IMG/VR virus record: IMGVR_UViG_2713896903_000004
DNA length: 17,818 nucleotides
Strand: one strand, 5' to 3'
Source: a virus
Taxonomy: Duplodnaviria > Heunggongvirae > Uroviricota > Caudoviricetes
The notes beneath the pieces are model-generated. The model ran no database searches and was not told the origin of the DNA. It saw only the letters and a program-made list of their open reading frames with translations. Below are positions 1-7,180 of this stretch, one piece after another (within the stretch, counting starts at the first letter, position 1; every line of letters begins with the position of its first letter). The position numbers and the translations under genes are program-made.

Positions 1-475
1 ATACCTCAATCTCTCTGACCGTTCCGCCTGCTTCTTTGAATTTTGCAATCAGGCTGTCAGCCTTGTGCTCGAACTGACCATAACCAGCGCCCGGCAGTGA
101 AGCCCAGATATTGCTGCAACGGTCAATTGCCTGACGAATATCACCGCGATCAATCATCAGTAAAGCGCCACGCTCTTTAATCTGCTGCAATGCCACAGCG
201 TCCTGGCTTTTCGGAGAGAAGTCTTTCAGGCCAAGCTGCTTACGGTATGCATCCCACCAACGGGAAAGAAGCTGGTAACGTCCAGCTGCGGTTGATTTAA
301 GTTGCGGGTTTAGCGTGACAAGTTTGCGAGGATGATCGGAGTAATCCGTGAATAGCTCACCACCTACAATAACGTCGTAGCCGTGATTGCGGGTTGGCTG
401 TCGCCCGTTATCCGTTCCTTCTGACCACGCCAACATATCGAGAAAAGCTTTACGCTGGGAATTTAGTACCTGCAT
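1..475 (-). CDS. R: Endolysin, lambda R-type lytic transglycosylase (158 codons; stop codon cut by window edge)
   Basis: Minus-strand ORF from ATG at 475..473 translates MQVLNSQRKAFLDMLAWSEGTDNGRQPTRNHGYDVIVGGELFTDYSDHPRKLV...KFKEAGGTVREIEV, near-identical to my memory of phage lambda R. It starts 3 nt after the holin stop. It is absent from the ORF track only because its stop is truncated. Confidence 0.9.
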   Translation of the reverse strand, partial: MQVLNSQRKAFLDMLAWSEGTDNGRQPTRNHGYDVIVGGELFTDYSDHPRKLVTLNPQLKSTAAGRYQLLSRWWDAYRKQLGLKDFSPKSQDAVALQQIKERGALLMIDRGDIRQAIDRCSNIWASLPGAGYGQFEHKADSLIAKFKEAGGTVREIEV

Positions 476-478
476 AAA

Positions 479-805
479 TTACTCCTTCGAGCTACCAAAT
501 TTGTTGCCGATTACTCTCATTGCAGCACCACGAATAGCATCGACGCCGATCAGCCCAACGCCGCCACCAATGGCAACAGAAAGTGATTTAGGCCATCCGA
601 CATACTCAAGCGCGGATGCAAAGGTCAGCGTCAGAGCGCCACAGAGCAAAATCTCGAGCGTTTTTCTCTTCCAGCCACCACCACCGCCAAAATAGGCAAT
701 GCGCAAGCCAGCCATAACGATCGACATAATCACTGCGCCCAGCGGTGTGTCTCCACGCCACCAGCTCTGGACCAACTCCAGCCAAGTATTTGGGTTATGA
801 GGCAT
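479..805 (-). CDS. Holin (class I-like; three hydrophobic segments, charged C-terminus)
   Basis: 108-aa ORF immediately upstream of the endolysin. Hydrophobic stretches LGAVIMSIVMAGLRIAYF, TLEILLCGALTLTFASALEYV and LSVAIGGGVGLIGVDAI, with a basic tail. Not lambda-S-like in sequence; the call rests on position and topology. Confidence 0.7.
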   Translation of the reverse strand: MPHNPNTWLELVQSWWRGDTPLGAVIMSIVMAGLRIAYFGGGGGWKRKTLEILLCGALTLTFASALEYVGWPKSLSVAIGGGVGLIGVDAIRGAAMRVIGNKFGSSKE

Positions 806-940
806 TTGTAGTTATCTCTCACCTCGCTGATACAGCAGGTGCAAATTGAGGAAACATCATGTACCGCAAATCAGAAGCGGAAACGTCAAAGAAGCCGAGC
901 CAATGGATAACTGCGGGATAGACTAGGCCCAACGAATCCC

Positions 941-980
941 CAGGCCCAGAAACGACAAAACCCGCTCGACGGCGGGTTTA
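941..980 (-). terminator. Rho-independent terminator for minus-strand transcripts (tR'-like, upstream of holin)
   Basis: 8-bp stem aaacccgc / gcgggttt (958-965 and 972-979) with loop tcgacg. On the minus strand it is followed by the U-rich run uuuugucguuu. Confidence 0.6.
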
Positions 981-1024
981 AGCTGTGTGGCGAAGTAACC
1001 ACTCTTAACACAATACAATACTTT

Positions 1025-1053
1025 TTGCGTACGCGTTAGTGTTTTGATAGAAT
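1025..1053 (+). promoter_or_regulatory. Candidate sigma70 promoter for the AT-rich operon (TTGCGT-17-TAGAAT)
   Basis: -35-like TTGCGT at 1025-1030 and -10-like TAGAAT at 1048-1053 with a 17-nt spacer, about 45 nt upstream of the ATG at 1097. SD-like GGGGA at 1086-1090. Motif match only. Confidence 0.3.
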
Positions 1054-1096
1054 TTTCAGCCACATAAAAATCCATTCTTATAATTGGGGATATATA

Positions 1097-2272
1097 ATGG
1101 ATATAACTTGTTTAGAATGTGGCAATGTTCTTGACGACCCAACTGTAGCTTGCGATAAATGCGGTGCCACGCCTCATGTTGTAGTGCTGGGCAAACAATC
1201 GTACTTTCCTATTGGTGCTGTAACAGCAAATCTTGAAAAAAATGATTCAAGAGCATTTGATTATCGATTAGGTGAAGTTTGGGATCTAAAAAATGAAGTC
1301 ACATCTGAATTCATAACCAGAATTGAGAAAAAATTTAGCCGAAAAAACAAATTTCATAACTTCCTAGACTCAGATCACAACCCTTCATCCATTCCTACGA
1401 TCCTAAAAAAATACATTAATAAAAATAATGAATTCATTGATTTATCTAGAGCTATAATAGAGAGGCTTAAACATAATGCTAATAACGAATCGAGAGTTGC
1501 CCAACTTCAGGGGGGGAGCGTTGTTTTCATCCACTATAAGTCTACCGAACCAGAGGATTTGGGGAAACTTCTAATCGTAATGGTTGATAAACAAAGCGCC
1601 TATGACTTTGATTCGGATAAGTTGACCCCAACAAGATTAAATCCAATTAATACCGATGCCTTACGGCAGGCTGCGATGTTCGATTTAACTTTATTCGAAG
1701 CCAGTTATCCAGAAAACAAGGGTGACTCATATGTACATTTCTTGCAAGGTAAATCTAAAAGCGATTTTTTCAAAGACTCATTAGGTTGCCGACATGATTC
1801 GGACAATAAAAGAAGCATTCAGCAATTATTCAGTGCTATAGATATTTTTGCTAGTAAAAACTCACTCGGTCGTGTACTGCGTGATACTATTGACAATGAA
1901 GTTAAATCCTTACTGGAAAAAAAATCAAAAGATAAACACGGAAATAAGTCCGTTAAGATAGAGGATATTTCAAAAATAATTGACTCATGCCTGACTGATT
2001 CACACAAATGTAAGGGAACGTTTGTCGATTTTGTTAATCTTAATGGTTTCCAGATTGACCCTCAATTTGAACCAACTCCTAAAGCAGCTGAAAGCGCGCT
2101 TACAATTGAAGTGGCAGATAACGACAATAATTTTAAGTTGAAAATAATGCGTGGAGCTATTGGAGACGAAAAGTCAAATAAGCCTGTAATTCTCACTGAC
2201 AACAAATGCGAAATTGTGATAAAATTGAGTCAGGCAAATTATGATGAACTCAAAAGATATAGAGACAGCTAA
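1097..2272 (+). CDS. Hypothetical protein with N-terminal C4 zinc ribbon; possible NdpA/YejK-like (nucleoid-associated) central region
   Basis: 391-aa ORF in an AT-rich block. CxxC...CxxC at residues 5, 8, 19, 22 (CLECGNVLDDPTVACDKCG). The central segment (GGSVVFIHYKS..., YVHFLQGKSKSDFF) resembles my recollection of the YejK/NdpA family but is unverified. Stop TAA is 2 nt before the next ATG. Confidence 0.8.
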   Translation: MDITCLECGNVLDDPTVACDKCGATPHVVVLGKQSYFPIGAVTANLEKNDSRAFDYRLGEVWDLKNEVTSEFITRIEKKFSRKNKFHNFLDSDHNPSSIPTILKKYINKNNEFIDLSRAIIERLKHNANNESRVAQLQGGSVVFIHYKSTEPEDLGKLLIVMVDKQSAYDFDSDKLTPTRLNPINTDALRQAAMFDLTLFEASYPENKGDSYVHFLQGKSKSDFFKDSLGCRHDSDNKRSIQQLFSAIDIFASKNSLGRVLRDTIDNEVKSLLEKKSKDKHGNKSVKIEDISKIIDSCLTDSHKCKGTFVDFVNLNGFQIDPQFEPTPKAAESALTIEVADNDNNFKLKIMRGAIGDEKSNKPVILTDNKCEIVIKLSQANYDELKRYRDS

Positions 2273-2274
2273 TA

Positions 2275-3489
2275 ATGACAATTGCTGATGACTTATCAAG
2301 ATTAGCGCAGATTATTAACGGAGCCTCAAGCAGAGTTGAGGGCTACTACACTGTCATAAGTCTTGAAGAAAGCATTGTTATTGTAAATAGTTCTGAAATA
2401 ATTAGACTGTTACAATCTATAGGTTATAAAAAGGCAACAACCTGCATCGAAAATAATGAAATTTGGCTAGATCGCCAAGCTTCATCTTGGGATGACGCTA
2501 TAATTTATGAGAATGTTGAGTCTTTTTGGTCTAGAGTAAACACCCAAAACGCTCTTCCGAAAAATTATATCATCGGAACGCCGTTAATACTCCCTACTTC
2601 TAAGAATGAAAGCATCGAAAAAATCCATATTTTCTTTATGTGGAAAGATATCCTTTCATTAATTGCTGATCATCATAACAGTGACTGCTCTGTCTTATTT
2701 TTCACCAATGAAGACAAAAGTTATACAGTCGAACTCACGCATTTTTTACAATATAGCGAGATTAATCGCTTATCGAACTCGTCTCTTAAATATGAAATTA
2801 TAAAGGAGCTTCTCGACACAATAAAAATCAATGATTTACACAAAAGCGAGCGCAAGCTCGTTATACGCTCAGCCATAAACGAAGTATTTAAAGCAAATGG
2901 TACGTTCAATTTCTTTGACTTGCTTAACTCTACTGAACTCGTCAGGAAAAAATATGATGAACTATATGAGATTTACACAAAGAGGTTTTCTGTAAATAAA
3001 ATTCTTAACGAACTCGATGAGAAAAATCTTGAGTTCACGAGTAAAATTAACGAATTCATATCATCTAATCAGACAAAAGCATTGACTATTCCCGGTGCAT
3101 TAATAGCAGCTGGTGGCTTAGTGAAGGCTAATGAAACAACCGAAGCAATATTGATTATCGCAGGACTTTGGATGATAAAAAAAGTCAATTACATTTCTAT
3201 TGAGATATTCAATGAAACATTCGACAACTTACGTTCTCGAGTGGAGTCCGCTTTCGATAAGTATTTAAAGTTTGAAGAAAATAAAGAAATCAAAGATAAT
3301 GCAGATAGTATTAAGAGTAGCATTACAGGTTTGATTGATAAAGCTAAAAAAAGGATGAGAACTGTTAAATATCTCGCATCAGCCATGTTTTATGGAGGCC
3401 TTATTTACGTTGGATATAAGCAGTTCCCAGTCTTTTTTGAAAAATCGGCAGTAAATCTATTTTATTTTTTATGCCATACTATAAGCTAA
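2275..3489 (+). CDS. Hypothetical protein with C-terminal hydrophobic (possibly membrane-inserting) segments
   Basis: 404-aa ORF translationally coupled to the upstream gene. Hydrophobic stretches LTIPGALIAAGGLV, AILIIAGLWMI and LASAMFYGGLIYVGY in the last third. No recognisable catalytic motif. Its last 21 nt overlap the 3' end of Q on the other strand. Confidence 0.8.
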   Translation: MTIADDLSRLAQIINGASSRVEGYYTVISLEESIVIVNSSEIIRLLQSIGYKKATTCIENNEIWLDRQASSWDDAIIYENVESFWSRVNTQNALPKNYIIGTPLILPTSKNESIEKIHIFFMWKDILSLIADHHNSDCSVLFFTNEDKSYTVELTHFLQYSEINRLSNSSLKYEIIKELLDTIKINDLHKSERKLVIRSAINEVFKANGTFNFFDLLNSTELVRKKYDELYEIYTKRFSVNKILNELDEKNLEFTSKINEFISSNQTKALTIPGALIAAGGLVKANETTEAILIIAGLWMIKKVNYISIEIFNETFDNLRSRVESAFDKYLKFEENKEIKDNADSIKSSITGLIDKAKKRMRTVKYLASAMFYGGLIYVGYKQFPVFFEKSAVNLFYFLCHTIS

Positions 3490-3825
3490 CATTGCTAAAC
3501 AGCCGTCAACAAACCCCATTGCAGTTTGCAGTTCCTTCCTAATTGTGCCATCAGAGCATTTTCTCTTCTTCGCAATAGTGCGTAATGAGATACCGATAAC
3601 AAAGTGGGCGATGATGAGCTCATATTCCTCTGGTTTATACCTTCTCAACCGAGCCACACAACTGTCTATCATGATGCCTTCATCATCATCGCACTGGAGA
3701 CGTGACTTTTTACCGTGTGGTAGAAGCCCCTTGAAACCAGCCGCTATCGGCTGCCAGTCGACACCACTATTTTCTGCTGCAGCCCAAGCCCCCCAACGAT
3801 CTAAAACTTCGTACATATCACGCAT
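3469..3825 (-). CDS. Late-gene antiterminator Q (small QuuD-type Q family)
   Basis: 118-aa ORF MRDMYEVLDRWGAWAA...IAAGFKGL...CSDGTIRKELQ matches my memory of the DLP12 QuuD-type Q family. GGAGG about 10 nt upstream of the ATG. Positioned between replication genes and the lysis cassette. Confidence 0.75.
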   Translation of the reverse strand: MRDMYEVLDRWGAWAAAENSGVDWQPIAAGFKGLLPHGKKSRLQCDDDEGIMIDSCVARLRRYKPEEYELIIAHFVIGISLRTIAKKRKCSDGTIRKELQTAMGFVDGCLAMLAYSMA

Positions 3826-4082
3826 CAGCGCAGTACCTCCTGCACCAGTTTTTCAAACTTTCCAACTTTGGTTTCCAGCTCTGCCACACAATCAACGAGC
3901 TCATCCACCGCTTTTTGTGCGCGATGTTTCGCCTGCATCAGTTCCCTGAGCGCTGGCACCATATCCCGACGAATGGCATCTTTTGTTACACCTGTTTTTT
4001 CCAGTTGTTCCGCCTGTCGCAACATTTCCTGTGCCTGTTTACGTAGTTGTTCAGGGGTAAAAGTCATTGTCTGGTTGTTCAA
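3825..4082 (-). CDS. Hypothetical coiled-coil protein (nin-region position)
   Basis: 85-aa ORF rich in E/K/R/Q heptad-like sequence. TTG start overlaps the DnaB stop (TTGA) with GGAG upstream; an alternative ATG lies at 4067. Its stop overlaps the Q start by 1 nt. Confidence 0.55.
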   Translation of the reverse strand: MNNQTMTFTPEQLRKQAQEMLRQAEQLEKTGVTKDAIRRDMVPALRELMQAKHRAQKAVDELVDCVAELETKVGKFEKLVQEVLR

Positions 4083-5470
4083 AAGAAACGCTCCATCTTA
4101 CTGCTGTCAGTTCGTTTGTTGCTGTATCTGCGCGGCTGGGGCTGCTGCATTGGGGTGGAAAGAATCTGTGCGCTTTCCTGATCCACAGGCAGAAAATGTC
4201 CGTTATAAAAACGCCGGTAAATCGTCCCCAGAGAACCGTTACGTTGTTTCGTGATATTGATTTCTGCTATGCCCCGGGCCTGCGTATCCGGGTTGTACAC
4301 TTCATCCCTGTAAAGCATCAGAATGATGTCTGCATCCGCCTCTATTTCTCCGGAATTTTTCAGGTCTGAGTTCATGGGGCGTTTATTGGGTCTGGACTCC
4401 ACACCACGGGAGAGCTGGCTCAGCGCAATTAAGGGAAAACCACCGGATTTTGCCAGGCCTTTAAGCCCCTTTGAGATTTCACCCACGGCAAGGTCATGAC
4501 GCCCCGTGGTTCGGGTTTTTATCAGCCCGAGATAATCAACCACCACCAGCGCCGTTTCCGGATATTTAATCAGGTGGTGTTTCGTTGTTGCGCATATCTC
4601 GTCAATGGTCAGGTTCGCCTGGTCCACCATCCAGATATTGCGCCCGGTCATCCGCCCCACCCCTTGTGAGAAACGCGCCCAGTCTTCGTCTTCAAAGTGA
4701 GCGACAGATTTCAGACGTGATACCGGCATTCCTCCAGCCGCAGATACCATGCGCTCACCAATCTGGATGTTCGCCATTTCCATTGTGAACAGAAGAACAC
4801 CATGCCCCTGCTCAGTCACCTTGTCGATGATATCCAGCGCCAGTTCAGTTTTGCCCATTGACGGACGAGCCGCAATAAATACCAGGTCGCCGGGCTCCAT
4901 GCCGCCTGTTTTTGCGTCCAGTTCATCAATACCGGTCATCAACGTCCTGGATTTCTCCAGCCCCTGATTCCGGCATTCAACACGCTCAACCACTTCCGGA
5001 AGCACATCATCAATATGTACCGGCTGAATAACGCCCTTTTCCGTCGACAATGAGGCCATCATGTTCTGCGCATCCTTCAGGGCATCTTCAGCTGCTTCAC
5101 AGGTATGCGCATCACGTAATTTCTGCAACGCCTCATTCAGTGTTTTTTCTGCATCACGCAATGCGGCATTGCGACGCAACGCTGCAACATAGTGCTCCAG
5201 TGAAGACTTCACCCAGGTTTTACGCCCGGTATCAGTAATCACCGGAGCAAGTTCCGGCATCTCATTGCACAGCAGCACAGGATCAATCACACCTGAAACA
5301 CGAGCCTGTCTGCAGATGCCTGTGTAGATATCCCGATACGCTCGTACAGAAAAAACGTCCGCCGGTAGTGTGGCCAGAATATCCATCACTTCATGATCTG
5401 CCCCTCGCAGAAAAAACGCGCCAATGACAGCGCCTTCCAGGTCATCGTTACGCCAGACAGGAGAAGTCAT
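4079..5470 (-). CDS. Replicative DNA helicase, DnaB family
   Basis: 463-aa ORF with Walker A ARPSMGKT and typical DnaB C-terminal RecA-like motifs (LVVVDYLGLI, ALSQLSR). ATGA overlap with the upstream loader gene. Confidence 0.9.
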   Translation of the reverse strand: MTSPVWRNDDLEGAVIGAFFLRGADHEVMDILATLPADVFSVRAYRDIYTGICRQARVSGVIDPVLLCNEMPELAPVITDTGRKTWVKSSLEHYVAALRRNAALRDAEKTLNEALQKLRDAHTCEAAEDALKDAQNMMASLSTEKGVIQPVHIDDVLPEVVERVECRNQGLEKSRTLMTGIDELDAKTGGMEPGDLVFIAARPSMGKTELALDIIDKVTEQGHGVLLFTMEMANIQIGERMVSAAGGMPVSRLKSVAHFEDEDWARFSQGVGRMTGRNIWMVDQANLTIDEICATTKHHLIKYPETALVVVDYLGLIKTRTTGRHDLAVGEISKGLKGLAKSGGFPLIALSQLSRGVESRPNKRPMNSDLKNSGEIEADADIILMLYRDEVYNPDTQARGIAEINITKQRNGSLGTIYRRFYNGHFLPVDQESAQILSTPMQQPQPRRYSNKRTDSSKMERFF

Positions 5471-6345
5471 GCTGCCATACCTCTGATACGAGAACGATAG
5501 CTGGGCCAGTTAAACGACAACCAGTTGCGTCCCCCGTCTGTGATCCTGTCGGCAATGCGGGGGCTGATGAATGCCCACAACTCTTCCGGTGAAAGGTTGC
5601 TGATCAGGATGGTGGGCAGGATGCTTTCGTACCGGGCATTGATAATTTCCTGCAAAATAGCCATTTCAGCCGCGCTGCCAAACTGAACACCAACTTCGTC
5701 GATGATCAGCAAATCCATTGACGCATAATGCTCAATAACTTCATCCGCTGTTTTTTCGCTGTCATTCCGCCAGCAGTTTTTCACAGCACGGGTAAGGCGC
5801 ATCACGTCGGTGATCTCCACACTGGCCAGATAGTTACGGATGATGTGTTTTGCCATTGATACCGCCAGATGATTTTTCCCGGTTCCGCAACTACCAGTCA
5901 TAACAAGACTGGTACCGTTCTCCAGCATATCTGGCCAGTTCTCCGCATAGCGGCGACAGGCCGCAAGATTTCTGGCTGCGTCAGGATTAACCTCCAGATA
6001 ATTATCAAACTCGCAGTCCCGAAAACGCAGGGCAATTCCGGCGTTATCAGTCAGCTCTTCCGCCTTGAGGGACGACAGCTCCATGGTCAAATCGTTGGCC
6101 TCAGCGATCAAGCAGTCAGGGCAGCATGAAATTTTTTCTCTGTCCTCGCCATTACGATCGCTCCACACCAGTATATGCGTACTGTATTTACCGTGTTTTT
6201 CGCAATATCCGCGGCCTTCACGCATCAGGCAGGAACGATAAGGCCATGGCTTTTCGCCCTTCTGAGCAAATGCAATCTCTGCCCGTAACTCATCCATTCG
6301 CGCCTGTAGTCTTTTTTGTTGTTCACGCAGGTTAAACGTCATCAT
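5467..6345 (-). CDS. DnaC-like helicase loader (IstB-type AAA+ ATPase) with N-terminal Cys cluster
   Basis: Walker A GSCGTGKNHL and Walker B LLIIDEVG. N-terminal CEKHG...CCPDC. I prefer the ATG at 6345 (SD GAGGTGA 5 nt upstream) over the track's GTG at 6354. Confidence 0.85.
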   Translation of the reverse strand: MMTFNLREQQKRLQARMDELRAEIAFAQKGEKPWPYRSCLMREGRGYCEKHGKYSTHILVWSDRNGEDREKISCCPDCLIAEANDLTMELSSLKAEELTDNAGIALRFRDCEFDNYLEVNPDAARNLAACRRYAENWPDMLENGTSLVMTGSCGTGKNHLAVSMAKHIIRNYLASVEITDVMRLTRAVKNCWRNDSEKTADEVIEHYASMDLLIIDEVGVQFGSAAEMAILQEIINARYESILPTILISNLSPEELWAFISPRIADRITDGGRNWLSFNWPSYRSRIRGMAA

Positions 6346-6355
6346 CGCTGTCACC

Positions 6356-7180
6356 TCAGAATGTCAGTTTGTCACTGGATTTACCGAATTTGTCAGACAT
6401 GGCTCCCAGGCCAGCCAGGACATCGACCTGTCGCTGTCGCCCACCTCCGGGAGCGGCTGGCTGTTGCCAGAATTCTTCGAAGTGACGATCGGGTCCAAAG
6501 AACGTCGCAGCCTGCTTCACGAACTGTGTGCCGGTATTTCCTGTAGCACGTACCCAGGCGGCATACCGCTTCACGCCATCAAGCATGGTCTCCGGTTTTA
6601 TTCCCTCCCTGAGACGGGCTTTCCAGGCTTTGAAGGCTGCCGACTTGGAATTGCCACCAGCACGTTTGGGATATTCCTGCCAGGCCTGTTCAAATTCCGG
6701 TGAATATTCCTGTCGGGCAGAGCGCGCTGGTGCAGACGCGTCAGCGGGTGCGCCAATTGTTGGTTCATTGACTGGTTCTTTGACTGGTTCAAAAGAGTGA
6801 CTGGTTCTGGGTGAATCTCCTGCACTACCCCCTGGTGCAACTCCTGCACCACCTGGTGAATTTGCTGCACTAGGTAGTGAATTATTTGCACTACCACCTG
6901 GTGAATCTTTTGCACCATCAAGACGAAGAAGATAAATATTGCTCGAGTTCCCTTTTTCACCTTTCCGGGAAACTTTTTTTACCAGTCCCGATTCACAAAG
7001 AGCCGTAATATGATTCATCACAGAACGTTTGCTAATCTCGCACTGATCAGCAATATGCTGATAGCTGGGCCAGCACTCGCCCTGATCGCTGGCATTATCA
7101 GCCAGCTTAATCAGAACCAGTTTTCGCAACGGATTTCCCACGCGAATTTTCATCGCTTTCACCATCAGCTCCATGCTCAT
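6356..7180 (-). CDS. Replication initiator (O-like; N-terminal winged-helix, repetitive linker, C-terminal domain)
   Basis: 274-aa ORF. N-terminal HTH-like region (SYQHIADQCEISKRSVMNHITALCESGLV). A low-complexity Gly/Ser/Pro/Ala linker is encoded by the iteron DNA. GGAGG upstream. Precedes the DnaC/DnaB-like genes as in lambdoid replication modules. Confidence 0.7.
   Translation of the reverse strand: MSMELMVKAMKIRVGNPLRKLVLIKLADNASDQGECWPSYQHIADQCEISKRSVMNHITALCESGLVKKVSRKGEKGNSSNIYLLRLDGAKDSPGGSANNSLPSAANSPGGAGVAPGGSAGDSPRTSHSFEPVKEPVNEPTIGAPADASAPARSARQEYSPEFEQAWQEYPKRAGGNSKSAAFKAWKARLREGIKPETMLDGVKRYAAWVRATGNTGTQFVKQAATFFGPDRHFEEFWQQPAAPGGGRQRQVDVLAGLGAMSDKFGKSSDKLTF
6761..6916. repeat. 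Iteron array inside the initiator gene (putative origin of replication)
   Basis: Three copies of TGACTGGTTC (6769-6778, 6781-6790, 6799-6808), then about five tandem ~21-bp units of the form GGTGAAT-N-TGCAC-N-CCT (6810-6916). A more AT-rich stretch follows at ~6920-6990. Confidence 0.55.

What the first reader, a model, noticed from the sequence alone, without database searches (positions are those of the whole stretch)
3469..3489. Cassette boundary lies inside the 3' end of Q: convergent 21-nt overlap and an apparently remodelled Q C-terminus
The Q stop (3469-3471, minus) and the second cassette gene's stop (3487-3489, plus) overlap convergently. The last four Q codons (Y-S-M-A) are read from AT-rich cassette DNA. 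As I remember the QuuD-type proteins, Q here ends about 10 residues early, which suggests the insertion replaced the native Q terminus and any pR' that followed.
Basis: partly seen in the sequence, partly recalled or inferred. Interest (0 to 1): 0.5.

Follow-up and report, generated by a model that had tools for sequence, protein, structure and literature searches.

The report
Defence cassette junction inside Q's tail
The last eleven codons of this prophage's late-gene antiterminator Q travel with a neighbouring anti-phage cassette (DS-1) rather than with the rest of Q, but this is the usual mosaic pattern at a cargo hotspot between Q and its intact late promoter, not a damaged Q.

Summary
Q (3469-3825, minus, 118 aa, PF06530) and the second cassette gene (2275-3489, plus) overlap convergently by 21 nt inside AT-rich DNA.

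Homology to relatives carrying other cassettes breaks at Q codons ~104-110 (window 3498-3514), so about 11 codons are cassette-linked, not four. In loci with the same cassette, the Q end and the cassette are 99.5-100% identical to the window while the Q body is about 93%.

Across about 100 related loci there are 22 Q tail spellings. Each goes with one spacer length, although near-identical spellings share a cargo.

Q is not truncated for its subfamily. Close relatives are mostly 113-122 aa, and a cassette-free relative has a 115-aa Q. QuuD (127 aa) is only 46% identical.

pR' was not lost. A conserved promoter-leader-terminator element homologous to the annotated pR'/qut/terminator of phage 933W sits at window 1039-955, directly beyond the cassette.

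The cassette matches the NCBIfam DS-1 anti-phage models. The likeliest mechanism is exchange of cargo by homologous recombination between the Q body and pR'.

This is ordinary phage mosaicism at a useful, possibly uncatalogued, defence hotspot.

The parts
3469..3825 (-). Antiterminator Q gene, 118 aa plus stop (Q21/Q933W family, PF06530).
   Evidence: ORF list; translation; Pfam 160 bits, profile positions 1-115 of 118; PHROG 79 'anti-termination protein Q-like'; weak sequence match to the Q21 structure 6P18, E=0.003.
3505..3825 (-). Conserved Q body, codons 1-107. It is shared with relatives whatever cassette follows, and serves as the homologous-recombination arm on the Q side.
   Evidence: blastn to L001, L003 and L004 stops at window 3497-3503. 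Per-codon conservation drops after G108. Mismatch maps.
3469..3504 (-). Cassette-linked end of Q: codons 108-118 (G-C-L-A-M-L-A-Y-S-M-A) plus stop. Residues 109-113 keep the family's hydrophobic pattern. Residues 114-118 (AYSMA) form a tail found only with this cassette.
   Evidence: 100% identity together with the cassette while the Q body is about 93%. 22 tail spellings, each with one spacer length. Sharp break against L051 and L063.
3469..3489 (.). 21-nt convergent overlap. Q codons 113-118 plus stop are read antisense to the last six codons plus stop of DS-1 gene 2. The TAA of gene 2 is the complement of Q codon L113 (TTA).
   Evidence: No stable hairpin on either strand. Conserved in 107 E. 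coli records.
2275..3489 (+). DS-1 gene 2, 404 aa.
   Evidence: NCBIfam NF053869 DS1_2_antiphage, 375 bits against a cut-off of 315; PHROG 5023; no Pfam or PADLOC hit.
1097..2272 (+). DS-1 gene 1, 391 aa, NA37/YejK-like nucleoid-associated anti-phage protein.
   Evidence: Pfam PF04245. NCBIfam NF053868 DS1_1_antiphage, 452 bits against a cut-off of 330. A YejK domain is listed among newly validated defence domains in PMC13092281.
1042..3503 (.). Cassette-specific, AT-rich DNA, about 2.46 kb. It occupies the place of about 43 nt in the cassette-free relative L108.
   Evidence: GC profile; blastn end points; alignment to L108; upstream edge of the conserved element in 36 variants.
1044..1071 (+). 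Promoter-like site for the cassette (TTGATA-16-AAAAAT), back to back with pR'.
   Evidence: Consensus scan only. Not otherwise tested.
1010..1039 (-). Candidate late promoter pR': weak -35 (CTAACG/TAACGC, 1039-1033), a spacer holding the invariant block ACGCGTACGCAAAA (candidate Q-binding element), and -10 TATTGT (1015-1010).
   Evidence: Position-for-position homology to the annotated pR' of 933W (TTTACG-16-TATCAT) and to the same region of DLP12. The -10 keeps TAnnnT in the variants listed. The spacer block differs between Q subfamilies (phiP27, 933W/DLP12).
950..1009 (-). pR' leader and terminator tR': conserved leader TAAGAGTGGTTACTTCGCCACACAGCTTAA, then hairpin 979-958 (AAACCCGCC..GAGCGGGTTT) followed by a T-rich run.
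   Evidence: Terminator scan. RNA fold -19.6 kcal/mol, z=-2.6. Homologous to the annotated qut and terminator of 933W. Some relatives carry a different hairpin at the same place.
479..805 (-). Lambda-family holin, the first late gene downstream of pR'-tR'.
   Evidence: Pfam PF05106; RefSeq annotation of the identical region.
3677..3681 (-). Crossover interval inside Q. Q nt 1-149 are identical to the Q of Stx1a phage LC567819. Q nt 145-357 are identical to the common E. coli DS-1-linked Q.
   Evidence: Mismatch lists.

Best explanation
**What it is.** Window 3469-3504 is one edge of a cargo hotspot that lies between the antiterminator gene Q and its target, the late promoter pR'.

**The hotspot.** In this Q subfamily, the DNA between Q codon ~108 and the -35 of pR' is a replaceable, AT-rich slot of 1.2-3.7 kb. 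It holds many different cargoes, most of them sets of genes convergent with Q.

**This window.** The slot holds the two-gene DS-1 anti-phage system.

**How cargo moves (inferred).** Cargo is exchanged between phages by homologous recombination. One arm is the conserved Q body. The other is the conserved pR'-leader-tR' element. Each cargo therefore brings its own version of the last codons of Q: five that keep the hydrophobic end of the last helix (C/V-L/I-x-M/I-L), plus 0-9 arbitrary residues.

**The overlap.** In the DS-1 class, Q's frame runs on for five codons (AYSMA) before it meets a stop. That stretch is also the antisense of the 3' end of DS-1 gene 2, which gives the 21-nt overlap.

**Consequence for Q (inferred).** Q is expected to be functional. 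After prophage induction it would act in trans, 2.4 kb away, on RNA polymerase paused at pR' (1039-1010). It would carry polymerase through tR' (979-958) into the holin and the other late genes.

**Shown and inferred.** Shown: the anatomy, the linkage of the Q end to the cassette, the mosaic breakpoints, the conserved pR'-like element, and the existence of a cassette-free relative. Inferred: activity of pR', activity of Q, the recombination mechanism, and neutrality of the tail.
For: 1. **Universal layout.** In about 100 loci that encode this Q subfamily, the conserved element is found 1.2-3.7 kb downstream of Q wherever enough sequence is available (one locus, L062, has about 7 kb but no match). 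Each Q tail spelling goes with one spacer length, for example AYSMA with 2414-2416 nt.
2. **Nature of the cargo.** All cargo regions are AT-rich (GC 0.29-0.40). Most are filled by ORFs convergent with Q. Contents differ: DS-1; a methylase with an AAA ATPase; DUF262 with a HEPN nuclease; a TIGR04255-family protein with two hypothetical proteins; and others.
3. **Linkage of the Q end to the cassette.** For the same cassette, the Q end is 100% identical and the cassette 99.5-99.9%, against about 93% for the Q body and 90-100% for the element.
4. **Recombination footprints.** The window's own Q is a chimera with a crossover at nt 145-149. L051 shares the Q body but breaks at nt 312-328 into another cargo. 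The same DS-1 cassette is joined to different early and late modules in E. coli and Salmonella.
5. **pR' identity.** The element aligns with the annotated pR', qut and terminator of 933W. There the Q stop codon lies between the -35 and the -10. DLP12 has the same element upstream of essD, with IS5/nmpC convergent to quuD in the slot.
6. **Q is intact.** Pfam covers profile positions 1-115 of 118. Abundant natural variants end at residue 113 (and P0085). The cassette-free relative has a 115-aa Q whose stop codon ends 16 nt before the invariant pR' block.
7. **No mobile-element signature.** No terminal repeats flank the cassette, and neither cassette gene matches a recombinase family.
Against: - The pR' assignment rests on homology to an annotation that is itself labelled 'putative', and on conservation patterns. 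The -35 is weak, and the consensus promoter scanner reported nothing on the minus strand there.
- No transcription data were available.
- Activity of Q with the AYSMA tail is untested. In the distant homologue Q21, the six C-terminal residues contact RNA polymerase (bioRxiv 10.1101/651190), so a tail effect cannot be excluded.
- A few close relatives keep a longer LEMD-type C-terminus (L104, L106). An older loss of a native extension in this lineage therefore remains possible.
- Homologous recombination is inferred from mosaic patterns, not observed. One cassette class is flanked by a 6-bp direct repeat, which hints at other routes.
Confidence: 0.75

Rival explanations
1. A single insertion event cut into a QuuD-like Q, removed about 10 native C-terminal residues and the adjoining pR', and left late-gene control altered or defective.
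For: - QuuD is 127 aa and this Q is 118 aa.
- A C-terminal extension with the motif xVxLEMD occurs in QuuD and Q933W, and in related form in phiP27 Q, L104 and L106. It is absent here.
- In 933W, pR' overlaps the 3' end of Q, so an insertion at that point could have separated or destroyed it.
Against: - pR'-tR' is present and conserved at 1039-955.
- The cassette-free relative of the same subfamily has a Q of 115 aa, shorter than this one.
- Close relatives are mostly 113-122 aa.
- The arrangement is shared by 107 complete E. coli records, Salmonella and many IMG/VR contigs, and its flanks are still recombining.
Confidence: 0.05
2. The junction is functional, not merely tolerated. By supplying the end of Q's last helix, the cassette makes its own simple deletion lethal for late gene expression (cargo anchoring). 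Alternatively or additionally, the terminator-less convergent overlap lets cassette transcription in the lysogen run antisense into Q and damp leaky Q expression, or the tail tunes Q activity.
For: - The cassette-linked segment includes conserved residues 109-113.
- The DS-1 class lacks the strong hairpin that separates Q from the convergent gene in most other classes. Its 75-nt fold energy is -8 kcal/mol, against -13 to -26 in most other classes.
- The overlap is kept, at 21-30 nt, in variants whose cassette is only 88% identical to the window's.
- The C-terminal residues of Q21 touch RNA polymerase.
Against: - Tails from 0 to 9 residues, with unrelated sequences, coexist on near-identical Q bodies, which argues for neutrality.
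- In another class the cargo lies wholly outside Q and a clean cassette-free derivative exists, so anchoring is not general.
- No expression data are available.
Confidence: 0.12
3. Cassettes enter by an insertion mechanism (illegitimate or microhomology-mediated, or site-specific) at a preferred target at the Q/pR' junction, rather than by homologous exchange between conserved flanks.
For: In the CICLILS class the three-gene cassette is flanked by a direct repeat (GTTATGA ... ATTATGA). The cassette-free contigs L108-L110 are exactly the one-copy product.
Against: - That pattern fits a microhomology deletion equally well.
- The DS-1 cassette in the window has no terminal direct or inverted repeats.
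- Neither DS-1 gene matches a recombinase family.
- Identity steps inside Q and inside the pR' element point to crossovers in the flanks.
Confidence: 0.08

Closest known systems
Q21/Q933W-family antiterminators and their pR'-qut-tR' units (phage 933W, phage 21)
   Same: - Same Pfam family (PF06530).
- N-terminal 113 residues colinear with Q933W and QuuD (46-47% identity).
- The promoter, leader and terminator element aligns with the annotated pR', qut and terminator of 933W.
   Different: - In 933W, Q abuts pR', with the Q stop between the -35 and the -10. Here 2.4 kb of convergent cargo lies between them.
- Q933W, QuuD and Q21 carry 14-31 or more extra C-terminal residues. This Q ends 5 residues after the shared core.
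- The -35/spacer block differs (TAACGCGTACGC here, TTTACGATCGT in 933W).
DLP12 defective prophage of E. coli K-12 (quuD - IS5/nmpC - essD)
   Same: - A gene convergent with Q (the porin nmpC, with IS5) sits between Q and the same conserved pR'-tR' element upstream of the holin.
- The DNA homology between QuuD and Q933W also ends inside the C-terminal codons of Q.
   Different: - Different Q subfamily (46% identity).
- The boundary lies after the LEMD motif, about codon 120, not at codon 108.
- A hairpin follows the quuD stop.
- The cargo is a porin, not a defence system.
DS-1 anti-phage system (NCBIfam NF053868/NF053869; DefensePredictor, Science 2026, PMC13092281)
   Same: Both proteins score above the curated equivalog cut-offs. 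The pair forms a two-gene operon with a YejK/NA37 domain in the first protein.
   Different: Nothing found here sets it apart as a system. What is added is its fixed address in enterobacterial prophages, between Q and pR', and the overlap of its second gene with Q. Distant homologues at 26% identity on marine plasmids do not share the last ~20 residues.
Defence hotspots of P2-like phages and P4-like satellites (Rousset et al. 2022, PMC9122126)
   Same: A variable slot between conserved phage genes that holds many alternative small defence-type cargoes.
   Different: - Different phage group and a different address (between a regulator gene and its target promoter).
- Here the conserved flank ends inside a coding sequence, so the cargo specifies the protein's last residues.
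Shiga-toxin cargo downstream of Q in Stx phages
   Same: Same neighbourhood. Stx1a phages of this Q subfamily carry a convergent three-gene cargo in the same slot.
   Different: The stx genes lie downstream of pR'-tR' and are read by Q-modified polymerase. The slot described here is upstream of pR', and its genes mostly point the other way.

Membership tests
Phage antitermination protein Q, Q21/Q933W family (PF06530) | Sequence match to the family profile above the curated threshold, over the full domain. | tested here: met
   160.3 bits against a cut-off of 26; residues 1-115 on profile positions 1-115 of 118.
Phage antitermination protein Q, Q21/Q933W family (PF06530) | Sigma region-4-like helix-turn-helix in the C-terminal half. 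| tested here: inconclusive
   - Sub-threshold hits to ECF sigma models over residues 40-104.
- The AlphaFold model gives confident helices at 68-87 and 92-117 (pLDDT 80-94). The N-terminal half is poor, and Foldseek found no significant PDB match.
Phage antitermination protein Q, Q21/Q933W family (PF06530) | A cognate late promoter with a promoter-proximal pause/Q-loading site and a downstream terminator, ahead of the late genes. | tested here: met
   Element at 1039-950, homologous to the annotated pR', qut and terminator of 933W and followed by the holin. Met at the level of sequence homology only; activity was not tested.
Phage antitermination protein Q, Q21/Q933W family (PF06530) | Antitermination activity on RNA polymerase. 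| not testable with these tools
   Needs a reporter or in vitro transcription assay.
   The window Q ends AML-AYSMA. QuuD continues MAL-DIRLEMDIVVNNSN and Q933W continues MML-GVRLEMDRYV.... Identity is 46-47%.
DS-1 anti-phage system | Both component proteins match the curated equivalog models and are adjacent on one strand. | tested here: met
   NF053868 at 452 bits (cut-off 330) and NF053869 at 375 bits (cut-off 315). The genes are 1097-2272 and 2275-3489, both on the + strand.
DS-1 anti-phage system | Protection against phage infection. | not testable with these tools
   Relies on the published validation behind the NCBIfam models. PMC13092281 mentions a validated YejK-domain system.
Prophage cargo (moron/defence) hotspot | Many unrelated gene sets at one address between conserved flanks, with atypical base composition. 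| tested here: met
   - 22 Q tail spellings, which group into fewer distinct cargoes.
- Spacers of 1.2-3.7 kb, GC 0.29-0.40.
- Conserved Q body on one side and the pR' element on the other.
Transposon, integron-cassette or other site-specific insertion | Terminal repeats or target duplication, and a recombinase or recombination site. | tested here: not met
   - No terminal direct or inverted repeats bound 1042-3503.
- Neither cassette gene matches a recombinase family.
- A 6-bp direct repeat flanks a different cassette class.

The most novel reading that the evidence does not exclude
The gap between Q and pR' in the lambdoid prophages that carry this Q subfamily is an uncatalogued defence hotspot with an unusual property. 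The conserved flank ends inside Q, so each cargo encodes the end of Q's last helix. In the DS-1 class this means the defence cassette cannot be lost by simple deletion without damaging the phage's late-gene switch; it can only be replaced. The terminator-less convergent overlap could also couple cassette transcription in the lysogen to antisense damping of Q.
Probability: 0.15. Interest if true: 0.55.

Novelty: new member of a known kind. Interest (0 to 1): 0.3.

Why it matters
- **For annotation.** A short, odd-looking C-terminus on a prophage Q, or a convergent overlap with the next gene, should not be read as a sign of a defective prophage.
- **For defence-system discovery.** The slot bounded by the Q motif G-F-(I/V)-(D/E)-G and the block TAACGCGTACGCAAAA of pR' is a simple sequence address. 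It already yields more than a dozen different, mostly uncharacterised gene sets in enterobacterial prophages, one of which is the validated DS-1 system.
- **For Q biology.** Natural variants give a ready-made series: tails of 0-9 residues on near-identical bodies, and Q placed from overlapping its promoter (933W) or 16 nt before it, to 3.7 kb away. This series can test whether the C-terminus, or cis proximity to pR', matters in the Q21/Q933W family.
- **Overall.** None of this overturns current understanding. It is a tidy example of modular phage evolution.

Tried and rejected
- **Rfam (window 1-4200).** Only two chance snoRNA hits, nothing for the pR' leader.
- **PADLOC-DB 2023.** No hit for the cassette or for cargo proteins of two other classes. 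NCBIfam later identified DS-1.
- **Consensus promoter scan.** Did not flag pR' on the minus strand. The assignment rests on homology instead.
- **Structure of Q.**
  - AlphaFold2 on 54 close homologues gave mean pLDDT 67, with the N-terminal half below 55.
  - Foldseek against the PDB found nothing below E=4.
  - Q's end could therefore not be mapped onto the Q21 structure. Sequence alignment to Q21 reaches only residue 86.
- **Repeat search (950-3600).** No repeats bound the cassette.
- **Hairpin search across the overlap.** Folding z-scores were +1.2 and +1.0, so there is no terminator.
- **tblastn of DS-1 gene 2.**
  - No match in the phage collection.
  - In plasmids, only Q-adjacent copies and 26%-identical marine homologues that lack the last ~20 residues.
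  - Which gene 'owns' the overlapped codons could therefore not be settled.
- **Literature searches** for a described Q/pR' hotspot found nothing specific. The Q21 paper gives the promoter and QBE sequences only in figures.
- **Pattern scans of IMG/VR for a cassette-free site.**
  - Gaps of 0-30, 62-92 and 93-123 nt found nothing.
  - The 31-61 nt gap found three contigs.
- **Rejected idea.** The 9-nt ATTCTATCA next to pR' as proof of a displaced native Q end. It is suggestive but not conserved in other DS-1 variants.
Full report
**1. The observation**

The ORF list gives a minus-strand ORF at 3469-3825 (118 aa) and a plus-strand ORF at 2275-3489 (404 aa). The sequence shows TAA at 3487-3489 on the plus strand and the complement of TAA at 3469-3471. 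The two genes therefore end inside each other, with a 21-nt overlap.

The minus-strand protein is a full-length member of the Q antiterminator family PF06530. It scores 160 bits and covers profile positions 1-115 of 118. Its last four codons read Y-S-M-A.

The DNA between about 1050 and 3500 has GC 0.33-0.36, against about 0.50 on both sides. Upstream of Q on the minus strand lie a small ORF, a DnaB-type helicase and a DnaC-like loader. Downstream, beyond the AT-rich block, lies a lambda-family holin at 479-805. The description is correct as written.

**2. Where the boundary really is**

Megablast and blastn against relatives with other genes after Q lose homology at window 3497-3503 and regain it at 957-1053. 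These relatives are the Stx1a phages, E. coli strain 361 and strain SCU-387.

A multiple alignment of one locus per Q tail type shows DNA conservation through GGnTTYnTnGAnGG (codons 104-108) and none after it. Per-codon amino-acid identity among 22 types is 1.0 at G108 and 0.27-0.50 for codons 109-113. These five codons still keep a hydrophobic pattern, C/V-L/I-x-M/I-L.

The sharpest case is L051.
- Its Q is identical to the window from nt 145 to nt 311.
- It then differs at nt 312, 321, 324, 328, 331 and onwards, and continues into a different cargo.
- In window coordinates the junction is 3514-3498.

About eleven codons of Q, not four, belong to the variable DNA.

**3. The Q end travels with the cassette**

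I compared 30 distinct loci that carry the same two-gene cassette with the window.

| Segment | Identity to the window (most loci) |
|---|---|
| Last 36 nt of Q | 100% |
| Cassette | 99.5-99.9% |
| Q body, codons 1-107 | about 93% |
| pR' element | 90-100% |

Salmonella prophages have a Q body only 88.8% identical in DNA. They nevertheless carry the same cassette (97.8%), the same AYSMA tail and the same 21-nt overlap.

In 5,426 complete E. coli genomes, the 91-nt junction sequence occurs in 107 records. That is the number that carry the whole cassette.

Across about 100 loci, each of the 22 tail spellings goes with one spacer length between Q and the next conserved element. Several spellings differ by one or two residues and share a spacer length, so the number of distinct cargoes is smaller than 22.

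**4. Q is a recombination substrate**

The window's own Q is a chimera.
- Nt 1-149 are identical to the Q of Stx1a phage LC567819.
- Nt 145-357 are identical to the Q found with this cassette in most E. coli.
- The crossover therefore lies at window 3677-3681.

The same cassette is joined to different replication modules and different lysis modules. No terminal repeats bound the cassette, and neither of its genes matches a recombinase family. Exchange by homologous recombination between conserved flanks is the simplest reading. It is an inference from the mosaic patterns.

**5. pR' was not lost**

The conserved element beyond the cassette reads as follows on the minus strand, window 1039-950:

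CTAACGCGTACGCAAAAAGTATTGTATTGTGTTAAGAGTGGTTACTTCGCCACACAGCTTAAACCCGCCGTCGAGCGGGTTTTGTCGTTTC

- **Upstream edge.** It is sharp, at TAACGCG, in 36 variants.
- **Homology to 933W.** The element aligns position for position with the region that the 933W record annotates as pR' (TTTACG-16-TATCAT), qut and a rho-independent terminator.
- **The -10.** The aligned hexamer is TATTGT here (1015-1010) and keeps TAnnnT in the variants listed.
- **The terminator.** The hairpin at 979-958 was found by the terminator scan and folds at -19.6 kcal/mol, z=-2.6. Some relatives have a different hairpin at the same place.
- **Match to the Q subfamily.** The block between the -35 and the -10 differs between Q subfamilies. 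It is TAACGCGTACGC here, TTTACGTACGT in DLP12, TTTACGATCGT in 933W and TTGCGGAATTCC in phiP27. The leader stays the same. This is what a Q-binding element matched to its Q would look like. By analogy with lambda, where the element lies between the -35 and the -10 (my recollection), I propose it as the Q-binding site.

Three weaknesses remain. The -35 is poor. The consensus scanner did not call the promoter. The 933W annotation itself says 'putative'.

**6. Cassette-free arrangements**

In 933W, the Q stop codon lies between the -35 and the -10 of pR'. This shows that, for this protein family, Q and pR' can abut.

I scanned IMG/VR for the pR' block within 0-123 nt of the Q motif. This found three contigs (L108-L110) of the window's own subfamily.
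- Their Q is 115 aa and ends GCICLILS.
- Its stop codon ends 16 nt before the invariant pR' block.

Against this relative:

| Stretch compared | Result |
|---|---|
| Q nt 1-321 | 83.5% identical |
| Q nt 322-348 | 40.7% identical |
| Resumption of homology | at CAC\|TAACGCG, window 1041 |

About 2.46 kb in the window thus stands in place of about 43 nt.

The same CICLILS tail also occurs with a three-gene convergent cargo flanked by a TTATGA direct repeat. The cassette-free contigs are its exact one-copy form. They may therefore be deletion derivatives rather than ancestors.

**7. Is Q shortened?**

Relative to QuuD (127 aa) and Q933W, yes. Those proteins continue after the shared core with (D/G)(I/V)RLEMD and more. 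Traces of that motif survive in phiP27 Q and in two close relatives, L104 and L106.

Relative to its own subfamily, no.
- The 120 best database relatives (82-94% identical) are mostly 113-122 aa. Those longer than 125 aa carry N-terminal extensions, and a few also have longer tails.
- Many end exactly at residue 113. One such protein is listed in more than a thousand blocks of the contig collection.
- The cassette-free relative is 115 aa.

Tails of 0-9 unrelated residues on near-identical bodies argue that residues after 113 are dispensable.

One caveat comes from the Q21 structure paper. It reports that the six C-terminal residues of one Q21 protomer order against RNA polymerase. I could not map this Q's end onto Q21, because the sequence alignment stops at residue 86 and my model was poor in the N-terminal half.

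**8. What the cassette is**

NCBIfam identifies the two proteins as DS1_1 (nucleoid-associated anti-phage protein) and DS1_2 (anti-phage protein). Both score above the equivalog cut-offs. The DefensePredictor paper lists a YejK nucleoid-associated domain among newly validated defence domains. The 2023 PADLOC library has no model for either protein.

**9. How the DS-1 junction differs from other classes**

| Feature | Most other classes | DS-1 class |
|---|---|---|
| Q stop to convergent gene | gap of 12-55 nt | overlap of 21-30 nt |
| 75-nt fold energy | -13 to -26 kcal/mol (strong hairpin, a likely bidirectional terminator) | about -8 kcal/mol |

One other class, L096, overlaps by 12 nt.

Convergent transcripts probably run into each other in the DS-1 class. 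Whether that matters is unknown.

**10. Generality**

DLP12 of K-12 has IS5 and nmpC, convergent to quuD, in the same slot. The same pR'-tR' element follows, and then essD. The DNA homology between QuuD and Q933W also ends inside the last codons of Q, after LEMD. phiP27 has a same-strand GIY-YIG nuclease gene in the slot.

I found no paper in the searchable library that describes this slot as a hotspot. That is not proof that none exists.

**11. Verdict**

The loss-of-pR' and truncation-by-insertion claims are not supported.

The feature is a normal mosaic junction at a cargo hotspot between Q and pR'. It holds a known defence system. Interest is modest (0.3). Its main value is a practical sequence address for finding prophage cargo, and a natural series of Q C-termini.

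Noticed in passing
window 3677-3681 (inside Q): The window's Q is itself a recombinant. Nt 1-149 are identical to the Q of Stx1a-converting phage LC567819. Nt 145-357 are identical to the Q linked to DS-1 in most E. coli.
   Followed up: yes
window 1097-3489: The two-gene cassette matches the NCBIfam DS-1 anti-phage models (NF053868, NF053869), while the 2023 PADLOC library has no model for it. In enterobacteria every copy examined here sits next to Q.
   Followed up: partly
window 1045-1053 (minus strand ATTCTATCA): Nine bases lying 6 nt upstream of the pR' block are identical to the last three sense codons (I-L-S) of Q in the cassette-free relative L108. This may be a displaced remnant of a native Q end, or chance. 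Other DS-1 variants differ at 1-2 of the nine positions.
   Followed up: partly
L108-L110 versus L111/L115 (IMG/VR and NCBI contigs): A three-gene convergent cargo (128, 81 and 292 aa) after a Q ending CICLILS is flanked by the direct repeat TTATGA. Three contigs lack the cargo and keep exactly one repeat copy. This is either a microhomology deletion or an insertion with a target duplication.
   Followed up: partly
window 3400-3540: There is no intrinsic terminator on either strand between the convergent Q and DS-1 gene 2. Most other cargo classes have a strong hairpin in a 12-55 nt gap there.
   Followed up: partly
window 987-1002 (minus strand GTGGTTACTTCGCCAC): A small conserved hairpin (GTGG/CCAC stem) lies in the pR' leader just upstream of tR'. 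It overlaps the stretch annotated as qut in 933W.
   Followed up: no
L103 (E. coli K-12 W3110, DLP12) 3380-6820: DLP12 has the same architecture: quuD, then IS5 plus the porin gene nmpC convergent to it, then the conserved pR'-tR' element, then essD. A GC-rich hairpin follows the quuD stop.
   Followed up: partly
window 3825-4082 (minus): An 85-aa ORF lies between the helicase gene and Q. Its stop codon overlaps the start of Q by one base. It is conserved in phiP27 and the Stx1a phages (PHROG 2565, unknown function).
   Followed up: no
L001 (Stx1a phage LC567819) 2700-4942: In Stx1a-converting phages, the three hypothetical genes convergent to Q occupy the same slot, and the pR'-like element lies between them and stx1A. 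Toxin genes and the unknown cargo therefore sit on opposite sides of pR'.
   Followed up: no
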